Assembly (NCBI GenBank): GCA_903912365.1
Contig: CAIWGV010000004.1
Location: forward strand, 11,710 to 75,709
DNA: 64,000 nt
Origin: an uncultured Alphaproteobacteria bacterium
GTDB taxonomy: Bacteria > Pseudomonadota > Alphaproteobacteria > UBA7879 > UBA5542
Direction of reading: 5' to 3'
Both the position numbers and the translations under genes were made by a program. Below the pieces are notes generated by a model. The model was given only the letters and a program-made list of their open reading frames with translations. It was not told the DNA's origin and searched no databases. Numbering within the stretch: position 1 is the first letter of the stretch; every line of letters begins with the position of its first letter. Positions 45,397 to 46,308 of the stretch are shown in pieces.

Positions 45397-46308
45397 ATGA
45401 AATTTAAATATTTAGCGACATTTTTATTTGCAATTTCTTGTTTAGAAAGCTTTGCGGCTGGTCTCGGAAATGAGTTAGACGAGAACACGTTTCAACAACT
45501 CTTGAGTTCGGGCTGTTTTGGAGGTGTTTCTGCTCCCACAGCCGTTTCCCCTGAGACGGAAGATTTAACAGTGGAAGAAATTTCAGCTCTTTTTGCCAGG
45601 GGTGGTTTTGAGGAGCCTGGCGCTAAAGGGCCCTTTCCAAAAGATTTCCCTGCTGCTACTCGGGAGCCTGTTAAACTAACCATTGATCAGCAGCAGAAGT
45701 TGGATGACTTTTTGGCCAGTACTCCAAATGCAGACGAAAAAGAAGCCTTCAAGAGGGCCTTTGTGGATTCCCTTCGGCAGTCTTCTTTAAGAGAAAACAT
45801 AGCCTATTTAGAAGGAGATGAGCTGCAGGTTTACACACAACCCTTCTATGCTTCAACGGGGCTGCAGCTCTACAGGCATCCTGTTTTGGGGGATGGAACC
45901 TGTGGATATTACGCCATCACCGGAATTTTGCCCGATAAAATAGGGCAAGCCCAAGACGTGAGGCAGGAGGTGTCGCATCATGTTACCAGCCAGTATGATC
46001 GTAATGGGCGCATTAAAGAATTTGCGCCCGATCTAACGGCTTTGGAAGAGCTTGTAATGGATAATTACGAATACATGGATGTCTTAAAGGTTGATGGAAA
46101 ATCAAAAAATATTTTGTGTCGTGCGGATTTAACAGCAGAAGTTTATGAGAAAAACCTAGAAGTTTATGAGTATTTAGATAGCTGTAAGAGCGGACTGTTG
46201 AATCTTATTCGCCGTTACGATGCCTCGAATCCAACACAAACAGTACGTCTTTTGCTGACGGGCCAGCATTTTGACCTCCTTCAGGAATGGCCCTATGACT
46301 TCTCTTAA
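45397..46308 (+). CDS. OTU-like cysteine protease (putative deubiquitinase effector), secreted
   Basis: Signal peptide present. The Cys box VLGDGTCGYYAI (Asp166/Cys169) and the C-terminal His box TGQHFDLL (His291) are spaced about 120 aa apart, as in OTU domains. The upstream region is very AT-rich. Confidence 0.5.
   Translation: MKFKYLATFLFAISCLESFAAGLGNELDENTFQQLLSSGCFGGVSAPTAVSPETEDLTVEEISALFARGGFEEPGAKGPFPKDFPAATREPVKLTIDQQQKLDDFLASTPNADEKEAFKRAFVDSLRQSSLRENIAYLEGDELQVYTQPFYASTGLQLYRHPVLGDGTCGYYAITGILPDKIGQAQDVRQEVSHHVTSQYDRNGRIKEFAPDLTALEELVMDNYEYMDVLKVDGKSKNILCRADLTAEVYEKNLEVYEYLDSCKSGLLNLIRRYDASNPTQTVRLLLTGQHFDLLQEWPYDFS

What the first reader, a model, noticed from the sequence alone, without database searches (positions are those of the whole stretch)
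45397..46308. Secreted OTU-like deubiquitinase candidate, a eukaryote-type effector
A 303-aa signal-peptide protein carries the two diagnostic OTU boxes in the right order and spacing. The Cys box is hpVLGDGTCGYYAI (Asp166, Cys169; Cys codon at 45901-45903). The C-terminal His box is TGQHFDLL (His291), about 122 residues after the Cys. That matches the D-G-x-C…H-[YF]-x-x-L pattern of OTU domains and an OTU domain size of roughly 130 aa. Bacteria have no ubiquitin system, so an OTU protease with a secretion signal in a bacterium suggests a host-directed effector. The gene is preceded by an unusually AT-rich ~150-bp region (45243-45396). The N-terminal ~150 aa have no recognisable domain and could be a targeting module.
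Basis: partly seen in the sequence, partly recalled or inferred. Interest (0 to 1): 0.72.

Follow-up and report, generated by a model that had tools for sequence, protein, structure and literature searches.

The report
Divergent secreted OTU-like cysteine protease
A bacterial gene encodes an exported protein that is probably a very divergent relative of the eukaryotic and viral OTU enzymes that remove ubiquitin; bacterial enzymes of this kind are already known, but this one belongs to a tiny, fast-changing family that standard databases miss, and neither its fold nor its activity has been shown.

Summary
The ORF at 45397..46308 (+), 303 aa, is real and every stated coordinate checks out. It carries GDGTC169GYYAI and GQH291FD293LL, 122 residues apart.

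Pfam, NCBIfam and PDB sequence searches give nothing above threshold. The only Pfam hint is Otubain at the Cys box (E = 0.1). In about 15 billion proteins only two relatives exist. Both sit upstream of rnd, as here, and both keep the Cys and His boxes.

A profile built here from real PF02338 proteins singles the ORF out:
- It is the only hit among 346 six-frame ORF fragments of the window (E = 1.8e-5).
- hhalign gives probability 77% and P = 2e-5, with 121 columns aligned in register from Cys box to His box.
- These scores lie far above shuffled and real-protein nulls.

AlphaFold2 failed (pLDDT 36-42), so the fold is untested.

By the OTU rule C…H-aromatic-D, the triad is C169/H291/D293, not D166.

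The family evolves very fast. The OTU-like protein is 35-51% identical between relatives, against about 90% for the adjacent RNase D. Both sister alleles are frameshifted.

Verdict: probably a new, highly divergent bacterial OTU-type protease with a Sec-like signal. A role as a host-directed deubiquitinase is plausible but inferred.

The parts
45243..45396 (+). AT-rich intergenic region upstream of the gene (GC 0.24). It presumably holds the promoter and 5' UTR. An AGGA Shine-Dalgarno-like site lies at 45387-45390, 6 nt before the ATG.
   Evidence: Sequence; GC of all intergenic regions (second lowest of 20); no sigma-70 consensus match.
45397..46308 (+). Coding sequence of the 303-aa OTU-like protein (stop codon included).
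   Evidence: An identical protein is found on 6 public contigs. Protein-level homologs exist at syntenic sites.
45397..45456 (+). Predicted Sec-type signal peptide, residues 1-20 (MKFKYLATFLFAISCLESFA). The likely signal peptidase I site follows S-F-A.
   Evidence: Read directly from the sequence, with the hydropathy profile. Not confirmed with a dedicated predictor. A weak lipobox-like A-I-S-C15 cannot be excluded.
45658..45873 (+). Conserved N-terminal extension, residues 88-159 (REP…EKEA…ENI…GDEL…YT). It is predicted as two helices followed by a beta-hairpin and is specific to this family.
   Evidence: Alignment with the L005 homolog. It is the only part of the AlphaFold2 model with pLDDT 55-83.
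45874..46287 (+). OTU-like catalytic core, residues 160-297, aligned to OTU domain profiles.
   Evidence: hhalign, (121-126 columns; P 1e-4 to 2e-5). Controls. HMM hit on residues 157-205.
45889..45918 (+). Cys box GDGTCGYYAI (residues 165-174). The predicted nucleophile is Cys169 (45901-45903). Asp166 is the conserved Cys-loop Asp of the D-G-x-C motif.
   Evidence: Conserved as GDGTCGYYAIS in L005 and CGYYAIS in L004.
46120..46179 (+). Most conserved block of the family, ADLTAEVYEKNLEVYEY (residues about 243-259). It aligns with the OTU helix plus first core beta-strand ('…A..l…I.V.q').
   Evidence: Invariant columns; alignment. The alignment persists in the same register when both catalytic motifs are masked.
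46261..46281 (+). His box GQHFDLL (residues 289-295). The predicted general base is His291 (46267-46269) and the acidic triad residue Asp293 (46273-46275).
   Evidence: H-F-D is invariant in all three family members. OTU rule C…H-aromatic-D/N/E from PMC7396840.
43386..45242 (+). Upstream neighbour: a 618-aa orphan protein with a Sec-like N-terminus (MSFKNIALISSLFCGLFVSSSNSA). It has no family assignment, and a functional link to the OTU-like gene is unknown.
46359..47486 (+). Downstream neighbour: RNase D (rnd). It serves as the conserved synteny anchor in all loci that hold the family.
   Evidence: Pfam DNA_pol_A_exo1 + HRDC; synteny in L004, L005 and L006.

Best explanation
The gene encodes a Sec-exported, highly divergent member of the OTU superfamily of papain-like (clan CA) cysteine proteases.

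After a roughly 20-residue signal peptide come a variable linker, a family-specific helical and hairpin extension (residues 88-159), and a canonical-order OTU core (residues about 160-297). In that core Cys169 (GDGTC) is the nucleophile, His291 the general base and Asp293 the acid that orients it (H-F-D).

By analogy with almost all characterised OTUs, it most likely hydrolyses the isopeptide bond after the C-terminal Gly-Gly of ubiquitin or a ubiquitin-like modifier. It would therefore act on proteins of a eukaryotic host, probably a freshwater protist, once released from the bacterium. The route could resemble that of the type II-secreted Burkholderia DUB TssM.

The gene sits at a fixed chromosomal site upstream of rnd and evolves very fast, as host-interaction genes often do.

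What is shown: the ORF, the motifs, their conservation, statistical similarity to OTU profiles, synteny and rapid divergence.

What is inferred: the fold, the catalytic roles, export beyond the periplasm, ubiquitin as substrate, and the existence of a host.

My estimates are about 0.7-0.75 that it is an OTU-fold cysteine protease and about 0.45-0.5 for the whole statement, including host ubiquitin or Ubl as the target.
For: Motifs and conservation:
- Motifs, order and spacing are verified.
- C169, H291 and D293 are invariant in the only relatives. None of the other Cys residues that the relatives cover (C241, C264) is conserved, and C40 lies outside the conserved region.

Similarity to OTU profiles:
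- The OTU HMM, built from 20 real PF02338 proteins plus 6 seed sequences recalled from memory (only the CCHFV vOTU seed was checked against the PDB, 100% identical), hits only this ORF among 346 ORF fragments. It scores E 1.8e-5 and 19.2 bits; the next best is E 1.2.
- hhalign of the family against the OTU profile gives probability 76.9%, P 2.1e-5 and 121 columns from Cys box to His box.
- In the sandbox run the score is 33.0, against 12.6±2.4 for column shuffles (0 of 200 reach it).
- With both motifs kept in place and the rest shuffled, the score is 21.6±2.6 with a maximum of 30.3 (0 of 150 reach 33.0). Similarity therefore extends beyond the two boxes.
- The null from the 51 other genes of the window has mean 13.4 and maximum 19.1; the target scores 35.9.
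- The only Pfam hit at E<=10 is Otubain PF10275, on the Cys box.

Supporting context:
- The H-F-D arrangement matches the canonical OTU triad rule (PMC7396840).
- Validated bacterial OTUs share only about 15% identity with other OTUs, so weak scores are expected.
- The L005 homolog carries a consensus ubiquitin-interacting-motif-like segment, EDPDLALAMRRSLAD. Chance probability by shuffling is about 0.005, and there are 0 matches in 45,389 aa of window ORF fragments.
- Divergence is rapid next to a conserved rnd: 35-51% against 89-91% amino-acid identity.
- A Sec/type II-delivered DUB has a precedent in TssM (PMC10719079).
Against: - There is no Pfam PF02338 hit. Otubain reaches only 12.5 bits against a cut-off of 24.3.
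- Sequence and profile searches of the PDB are empty at E<=10.
- On the 21-sequence A6 profile the protein scores 11.6 bits (E 1.4 at PDB size) and the L005 homolog 5.1 bits. Both are below the weakest solved OTUs, at 14-19 bits.
- An hhalign probability of 70-77% is below the >90% usually required for confident homology.
- Both AlphaFold2 models have low confidence, so neither the fold nor the triad geometry is supported.
- A Sec signal delivers the protein to the oxidising periplasm, not to a host cytosol. No secretion system or host-association marker is visible in the window.
- The window protein itself lacks the UIM-like motif, and Pfam did not call a UIM in L005.
- Both sister alleles are broken by frameshifts, so the family may be dispensable or decaying.
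Confidence: 0.48

Rival explanations
1. It is an OTU-like or papain-like cysteine protease, but it does not act on ubiquitin. It would be a periplasmic or extracellular peptidase working on bacterial or environmental substrates, such as envelope proteins, peptides or competitors' proteins.
For: - The classical Sec-type signal is the normal route to the periplasm.
- The genome encodes DsbB and many other Sec-type orphan proteins, consistent with a large ordinary secretome.
- No type III, IV or VI secretion genes and no host-association marker are seen in the window.
- The window protein lacks the UIM-like motif.
Against: - From general knowledge of the family, characterised OTU-fold enzymes are overwhelmingly Ub/Ubl isopeptidases. 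All bacterial examples tested by Schubert et al. come from host-associated species.
- A homolog carries a UIM-like motif.
- There is no adjacent immunity-like or toxin-system gene; the neighbours are rnd and a large orphan.
- The extreme divergence rate is more typical of host-interaction or conflict genes than of housekeeping envelope enzymes.
Confidence: 0.2
2. The OTU resemblance is a coincidence of two short motifs. The protein would be a lineage-specific secreted protein of a different fold and unknown activity.
For: - Every curated-library search is negative or sub-threshold.
- HMM scores depend on the profile used: 19.2 bits against 11.6 bits.
- With both motifs masked, the hhalign score falls to 17.9 (P 0.043).
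- Structure prediction gives no support.
- The ORF was picked out by eye because of these motifs.
Against: - The unbiased scan of all ORF fragments of the window finds only this ORF.
- The score exceeds the motif-preserving shuffles (33.0 against a maximum of 30.3; 0 of 150).
- The masked alignment keeps the same register.
- The target lies about 9 sd above 51 real unrelated proteins.
- Exactly the predicted catalytic residues are invariant in a family that is otherwise only 35-50% identical.
- The only Pfam hint among 24,736 models is an OTU-clan family, at the right place.
Confidence: 0.2
3. The gene is a decaying remnant. It would be a formerly functional effector-like gene that is now non-functional or dispensable in this lineage, intact here only by chance.
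For: - Both known relatives are interrupted, at different positions: L004 directly after the Cys box, and L005 between the helical part and the beta-sheet part.
- dN/dS between them is relatively high, at 0.58.
- The family is extremely rare: 3 loci in about 15 billion proteins, none in the JGI metagenome or IMG/VR scans, and no similar gene beside rnd in the two distant alphaproteobacterial MAGs fetched from GTDB.
Against: - The window allele is an uninterrupted 303-codon ORF with a ribosome-binding site, and its GC and GC3 are normal for the genome.
- The identical protein recurs on 6 contigs from several data sets.
- The catalytic motifs are conserved across alleles whose synonymous sites are saturated. 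That implies long-term purifying selection on those residues.
- The frameshifts lie in short, low-coverage metagenome contigs from a strain-variable region and could be assembly errors.
Confidence: 0.12

Closest known systems
Canonical OTU deubiquitinases (Pfam PF02338: OTUD3, OTUD5, OTUD1, yeast Otu1; nairovirus vOTU such as CCHFV L protein residues 1-169)
   Same: - Cys box G-D-G-x-C followed by aromatic residues. Compare vOTU GDGNCFYHSIA and OTUD3 GDGNCLFRALG with GDGTCGYYAIT here.
- His box with the acid two residues later. Compare vOTU GQTHFDAL with GQHFDLL here.
- Cys precedes His.
- The 122-residue spacing is in the same range as vOTU (C40/H151, 111 residues).
- The profile-profile alignment covers the whole core.
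   Different: - About 15% identity; below the Pfam threshold.
- A 70-residue family-specific N-terminal extension.
- A Sec signal peptide.
- Bacterial origin.
- Fold and activity not demonstrated.
Validated bacterial OTU effectors (wMelOTU, wPipOTU, RickOTU, BurkOTU, ChlaOTU, EschOTU, Legionella ceg7, ceg23/LotB, LotA, LotC; Schubert et al. 2020, PMC7396840)
   Same: - Bacterial proteins with OTU active-site motifs and only about 15% identity to eukaryotic OTUs.
- They include alphaproteobacterial examples (Wolbachia, Rickettsia).
- The typical C…H-aromatic-D topology is shared with wMelOTU.
   Different: [quoted passage not shown] This one has a Sec signal and comes from an uncharacterised freshwater alphaproteobacterium.
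- No relative of this protein beyond its own three loci turned up in the searches of about 15 billion proteins.
EmcB/CoxDUB family of Legionellales (Duncan-Lowey & Roy 2025, PMC12501173)
   Same: Another bacterial DUB family with no discernible sequence identity to OTUs, recognised as OTU-derived only by structure. AlphaFold2 also failed for EmcB itself.
   Different: EmcB-type enzymes are circularly permuted, with the Cys helix after the His strand, and are Dot/Icm substrates. The window protein has the canonical Cys-then-His order.
Burkholderia TssM (USP-type DUB secreted by the type II system; PMC10719079)
   Same: It is the precedent for a deubiquitinase exported by the Sec/type II route rather than by type III, IV or VI secretion. 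It is thought to strip ubiquitin from cytosolic bacteria.
   Different: TssM has a USP fold, not an OTU fold, and is not a sequence relative. Type II secretion is not shown for the window protein.
Otubains (Peptidase C65, PF10275)
   Same: The only Pfam family that reports the protein at all: residues 162-199 against the Otubain Cys-box region (E 0.1).
   Different: The score is 12.5 bits against a cut-off of 24.3. The hit covers the Cys box only; the long otubain insertions are absent.

Membership tests
OTU superfamily (clan CA; Pfam PF02338 and relatives) | Catalytic Cys motif of the D-G-x-C type followed by aromatic or small residues | tested here: met
   GDGTC169GYYAI. It aligns with GDGNCLFRA of the OTU profile and is conserved in L005 and L004.
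OTU superfamily (clan CA; Pfam PF02338 and relatives) | General-base His followed by a large aromatic residue and an acidic or amide residue two positions later (C…H-aromatic-D/N/E), with Cys before His | tested here: met
   H291-F292-D293 lies 122 residues after C169 and is invariant in all three family members. Rule quoted from PMC7396840.
OTU superfamily (clan CA; Pfam PF02338 and relatives) | Similarity to the family profile across the whole core, not just at the motifs | tested here: inconclusive
   - hhalign gives probability 76.9%, P 2.1e-5 and 121 columns.
- The score exceeds all shuffles, the motif-preserving shuffles and 51 real unrelated proteins.
- The probability is below the usual >90% level, and with the motifs masked the score is only 17.9.
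OTU superfamily (clan CA; Pfam PF02338 and relatives) | Match to the curated Pfam OTU model at its gathering threshold | tested here: not met
   - No PF02338 hit at E<=10.
- This is a detection criterion rather than a structural definition.
- Solved OTUs such as A20, Cezanne, LotA, VCPIP1 and Lpg2248 score only 14-19 bits on my OTU profile. The window protein scores 11.6-19.2 bits depending on the profile.
OTU superfamily (clan CA; Pfam PF02338 and relatives) | OTU fold, with Cys at the start of an alpha-helix, His on a strand of the central beta-sheet, and the triad juxtaposed | tested here: inconclusive
   - AlphaFold2 gave pLDDT 36.2 from a single sequence and 42.4 with the 3-sequence alignment.
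- Foldseek of the model against the PDB gave no hit at E<=0.001.
- The model is too poor either to support or to refute the fold.
OTU superfamily (clan CA; Pfam PF02338 and relatives) | Cys-dependent isopeptidase activity on ubiquitin or a ubiquitin-like modifier | not testable with these tools
   Requires purified protein, Ub/Ubl probes and cleavage assays.
Otubain (Peptidase C65, PF10275) | Match to the family model at its gathering score (24.3 bits) | tested here: not met
   12.5 bits, E 0.1, Cys-box region only.
EmcB/CoxDUB permuted OTU-like DUBs | Circular permutation that places the catalytic Cys helix C-terminal to the His strand | tested here: not met
   Cys169 precedes His291. Definition from PMC12501173.
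Bacterial translocated DUB effectors | Delivery into a eukaryotic host cell by a type III, IV or VI signal, or by type II secretion from a cytosolic bacterium | not tested
   Only a Sec-like N-terminal signal is visible. No secretion-system genes lie in the window. The rest of the genome was not available.
UIM-containing ubiquitin-binding proteins | Consensus of acidic residues followed by hydrophobic-x-x-Ala-x-x-x-Ser-x-x-acidic | tested here: not met
   - The motif is absent from the window protein.
- It is present only in the L005 homolog (EDPDLALAMRRSLAD), with shuffle probability about 0.005.
- Pfam did not call a UIM there.

The most novel reading that the evidence does not exclude
The enzyme is an OTU-fold protease whose place of work is the bacterial envelope or exterior, not a host cytosol. 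Two forms of this reading remain open.

1. It is the first OTU with a non-ubiquitin, prokaryotic substrate.
2. It is a surface-acting 'ubiquitin-coat stripper' of a protist-cytosolic alphaproteobacterium.

In either form the gene would be held at one chromosomal site as deeply divergent, recombining alleles. The evidence for that is dS of about 0.7 next to an rnd gene that is nucleotide-identical between the same two contigs, which would point to diversifying or balancing selection in an arms race.
Probability: 0.15. Interest if true: 0.68.

Novelty: new member of a known kind. Interest (0 to 1): 0.42.

Why it matters
Bacterial OTU deubiquitinases are known tools for subverting host ubiquitin signalling. 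The known examples come mostly from cultured pathogens and from insect symbionts.

If confirmed, this protein would add three things:
- A sequence-orphan OTU family that Pfam and NCBIfam cannot see.
- An example from an uncultured freshwater alphaproteobacterium.
- An OTU with a Sec-type export signal, a route so far documented for a DUB only in Burkholderia TssM.

The locus also gives a compact example of an effector-like gene diverging far faster than its housekeeping neighbour, with very different alleles in otherwise near-identical backgrounds. That could serve as a marker for finding other hidden host-interaction genes in metagenome-assembled genomes.

If the OTU assignment is wrong, the gene is simply one of many lineage-specific secreted orphans in this genome.

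Tried and rejected
Curated libraries and PDB sequence searches
- Pfam on the full protein, on the domain alone and on the L005 homolog gave no family above threshold.
- NCBIfam gave only a spurious 12-bit exonuclease hit.
- PDB searches with the single sequence and with the 3-sequence profile were empty at E<=10.

Searches for relatives
- The word-indexed search of 5.8 billion clusters, with the sequence and with the family profile, returned only the protein itself and P0004.
- The exhaustive phmmer search of 1.84 billion representatives gave two real relatives plus low-complexity or repeat false positives, P0005-P0008.
- JGI metagenome scans with the family profile and with RNase D found nothing.
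- The IMG/VR scan found nothing.
- The genome-contig scan with RNase D returned only distant alphaproteobacterial MAGs (41% identity). They carry no OTU-like gene next to rnd.

Structure
- AlphaFold2 gave pLDDT 36 with a single sequence.
- The allowed 3-row alignment gave pLDDT 42.
- Foldseek on that model was uninformative.

Other checks
- There is no paralog in the window and no similarity to the upstream orphan.
- The sigma-70 promoter and terminator scan around the gene showed nothing useful.
- Rfam found only the two tRNAs.
- The gene's GC (0.443) and GC3 (0.408) lie within about 1 sd of the window's genes, so there is no compositional sign of recent horizontal transfer.

Families rejected on motif order or motif sequence alone, from general knowledge and not tested with profiles
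- CE-clan ULP-type proteases: His comes before Cys.
- NlpC/P60 and CHAP: D-C-S-G-type Cys box and shorter spacing.
- C39 bacteriocin-processing peptidases: shorter Cys-His spacing.
- YopT/AvrPphB (C58): the acid lies about 15 residues after the His.
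Full report
OBSERVATION

The ORF at 45397..46308 on the + strand exists as described. It is 303 codons long, starts at ATG and has an AGGA 6 nt upstream. Translation confirms GDGTCGYYAI at residues 165-174, with D166 and C169 (TGT at 45901-45903). It also confirms GQHFDLL at residues 289-295, with H291 (CAT at 46267-46269). 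The two boxes are 122 residues apart.

The N-terminus, MKFKYLATFLFAISCLESFA|AG, has the charge, hydrophobic core and small -3/-1 residues of a Sec signal. No dedicated predictor was available, so this rests on inspection.

The upstream intergenic stretch 45243-45396 has GC 0.24. That is the second lowest of 20 intergenic regions in a window of GC 0.46. No sigma-70 consensus was found in it.

WHAT STANDARD SEARCHES SAY

Pfam finds nothing on the full protein. On the C-terminal 176 residues the only family reported at E<=10 is Otubain (PF10275). The hit is 12.5 bits, E 0.1, and lies exactly on the Cys box. NCBIfam and PDB sequence searches are empty.

The protein is nearly an orphan:
- The word-indexed search of 5.8 billion clusters returns only the protein itself.
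- The exhaustive phmmer search of 1.84 billion representatives gives two real relatives, P0003 (80 aa) and P0004 (133 aa). Both are C-terminal fragments from short lake-metagenome contigs.
- JGI metagenome and IMG/VR scans found no further copies.

THE RELATIVES

Reading the DNA of those contigs (L004, L005) shows that each holds a longer homolog interrupted by a frame change, and the two breaks are at different places.
- In L005 an upstream ORF ends …PGDGTCGYYAISGIVPD…DDGVYKDSP*. Its stop overlaps the ATG of the His-box ORF.
- L004 begins CGYYAISGIV, and one extra base follows.

After repair, the three sequences align from about residue 88 to the end. The invariant residues include C169, H291, F292, D293 and the block ADxTAE..KNLEVYEY. 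The other cysteines that the relatives cover (C241, C264) are not conserved.

In all loci the next gene is rnd (RNase D). The RNase D N-terminus is 89-91% identical to the window's. The OTU-like protein is only 35-51% identical.

L004 and L005 are essentially identical in nucleotide sequence through the rnd start. In the OTU-like gene they drop to about 70% identity with indels. Between them dS is 0.73 and dN/dS is 0.58. The locus is therefore a hypervariable, probably recombining site next to a conserved gene.

The L005 homolog also carries EDPDLALAMRRSLAD. This fits the ubiquitin-interacting-motif consensus as I know it from the literature. The shuffle probability is about 0.005, and there are no matches in 45,389 aa of window ORF fragments. 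The window protein lacks the motif, and Pfam did not call a UIM in L005.

TESTING THE OTU HYPOTHESIS

I recalled six OTU domain sequences from memory. Only the CCHFV vOTU seed was checked, and it is 100% identical to PDB 3ZNH/3PHW. I used the six only as bait, to collect 493 real database proteins, of which the 120 best were listed; nearly all of these are annotated PF02338. From those I built two profiles:
- the 'trimmed profile', from 20 non-redundant domains plus the six seed sequences;
- A6, from 20 full-length database proteins plus the PDB-validated vOTU seed.

Results:
- An HMM of the trimmed profile, run with all filters off against all 346 six-frame ORF fragments (>=60 aa) of the window, hits only this ORF. 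It scores E 1.8e-5 and 19.2 bits; the next best is E 1.2.
- hhalign of the family against A6 gives probability 76.9%, P 2.1e-5, score 40 and 121 aligned columns from the Cys box to the His box.
- In that alignment, GDGTCGYYAI pairs with GDGNCLFRAL, the following helix with the OTU 'H..R' helix, NLEVYEY with the first core strand, and HFDLL with HYDSV.

Controls:
- Column shuffles score 12.6±2.4, with a maximum of 19.7, against 33.0 for the real alignment; the reversed sequence scores 12.5.
- With both motifs kept in place and everything else shuffled, the score is 21.6±2.6 with a maximum of 30.3. The real score of 33.0 exceeds all 150.
- With both motifs masked, the score is 17.9 and the register is unchanged.
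- The 51 other genes of the window, used as real-protein nulls, have mean 13.4 and maximum 19.1. The target as a single sequence scores 35.9.

Calibration cuts the other way. Run against the PDB, the A6 profile retrieves almost only OTU proteins, down to about 14 bits: EschOTU 24.6, Lpg2248 19.0, Cezanne 16.8, LotA 15.6, A20 15.5, VCPIP1 14.8. On that same profile the window protein scores only 11.6 bits and the L005 homolog 5.1 bits. The sequence evidence is therefore significant for a pre-specified comparison. It sits at or just below the level of the most divergent proven OTUs.

STRUCTURE

AlphaFold2 failed twice, with pLDDT 36.2 for the single sequence and 42.4 with the permitted 3-row alignment. 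Foldseek on the second model gave nothing meaningful. The fold and the catalytic geometry therefore remain untested. This is a failure of the method, not a refutation. The authors of the EmcB study report the same AlphaFold2 failure for EmcB.

INTERPRETATION

Schubert et al. describe the typical OTU triad as C…H-aromatic-D/N/E, with the acid two residues after the His on the same strand. Here that gives C169/H291/D293. D166 is the conserved Asp of the D-G-x-C Cys loop. From my own knowledge of the family, that residue helps shape the oxyanion hole rather than acting as the triad acid.

The most likely reading is a Sec-exported, very divergent, canonical-topology OTU-type cysteine protease. By analogy it would be a Ub/Ubl isopeptidase aimed at a eukaryotic host. 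Validated bacterial OTUs likewise share only about 15% identity with other OTUs, and they occur in alphaproteobacterial symbionts such as Wolbachia and Rickettsia. A Sec signal is unusual for DUB effectors, but Burkholderia TssM, a type II secretion substrate, is a precedent.

CONTEXT

The window is an ordinary alphaproteobacterial chromosome segment. It carries gatCAB, the pyruvate dehydrogenase complex, alaS, der, bamB, uvrD, class II RNR, a bacterial NDUFA12 homolog, rplM/rpsI and LPS and sugar-nucleotide genes. Interspersed among them are many Pfam-less ORFs with Sec-like N-termini. The gene's GC and GC3 are normal for the genome. No secretion-system or host-association gene is visible, so the existence of a host is inferred only from the nature of the protein. 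Two distant alphaproteobacterial MAGs have no such gene beside rnd.

RIVALS

The three rivals are:
- a periplasmic or extracellular OTU-like protease with a non-ubiquitin substrate (about 0.2);
- a coincidental motif match in a protein of another fold (about 0.2);
- a decaying, dispensable gene, suggested by the two frameshifted sister alleles (about 0.12; this overlaps with the others).

VERDICT

If it is what it appears to be, it is a new and very divergent member of a known kind, the bacterial OTU-type proteases. It is of moderate interest. The main additions are that the family is invisible to curated models, has a Sec-type signal, and shows allele hypervariability at a fixed site upstream of rnd.

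Noticed in passing
L004 1-470 and L005 540-1040 (sister loci), compared with window 45889-46340: Two metagenome contigs have essentially identical nucleotide sequence across the rnd start, yet carry OTU-like alleles only about 70% identical in nucleotides (56% in amino acids; dS 0.73, dN/dS 0.58). The switch happens within the short intergenic spacer. This suggests recombination, or anciently diverged alleles held at one site.
   Followed up: partly
L004 nt 28-47; L005 nt 735-750: Both sister alleles are interrupted, at different places. In L004 one extra base directly after CGYYAISGIV gives a TGA at nt 34-36. In L005 the stop of the Cys-box ORF overlaps the ATG of the His-box ORF (ATGA). They could be pseudogenes, split genes or assembly errors; read-level data are needed.
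   Followed up: partly
L005 nt about 90-135 (protein segment EDPDLALAMRRSLAD): [quoted passage not shown] The aligned segment of the window protein (ETEDLTVEEISALFA) has lost the Ala and Ser positions.
   Followed up: partly
window 43386-45242 (+): The gene directly upstream encodes a 618-aa protein with a Sec-like signal. It has no Pfam, NCBIfam or PDB match and is not in the protein collection as this exact sequence. With the OTU-like gene it forms a two-gene orphan insert between gatC and rnd.
   Followed up: partly
window 15982-16968 (+) and 16977-17954 (+): These are tandem paralogs (63% identity over 325 aa) with an N-terminal membrane anchor and no Pfam family.
   Followed up: no
window 9314-9796, 12902-15082, 23372-24883, 25464-26228, 26424-28112, 31458-32054, 60506-61459: These are further Pfam-less ORFs among housekeeping genes. 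9314-9796, 12902-15082, 25464-26228, 26424-28112 and 31458-32054 have Sec-like N-termini; 23372-24883 and 60506-61459 show no clear one. 12902-15082 and 23372-24883 share a C-terminal region (27-36% identity). The genome seems rich in lineage-specific secreted proteins.
   Followed up: no
window 33080-33164: This is the most AT-rich intergenic stretch in the window (GC 0.21), even lower than the one upstream of the OTU-like gene.
   Followed up: no
window 47499-48005 (+): A 168-aa orphan with an N-terminal hydrophobic segment lies directly after rnd, with a 12-nt gap. The same ORF is called in the Logan contig L006, 3 residues shorter at 165 aa. No family was found.
   Followed up: no
window 52809-54281 (+): This 490-aa protein has only a partial, weak subtilase (Peptidase_S8) match covering residues 219-384 (E 5e-11). 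It may be a divergent secreted serine protease.
   Followed up: no
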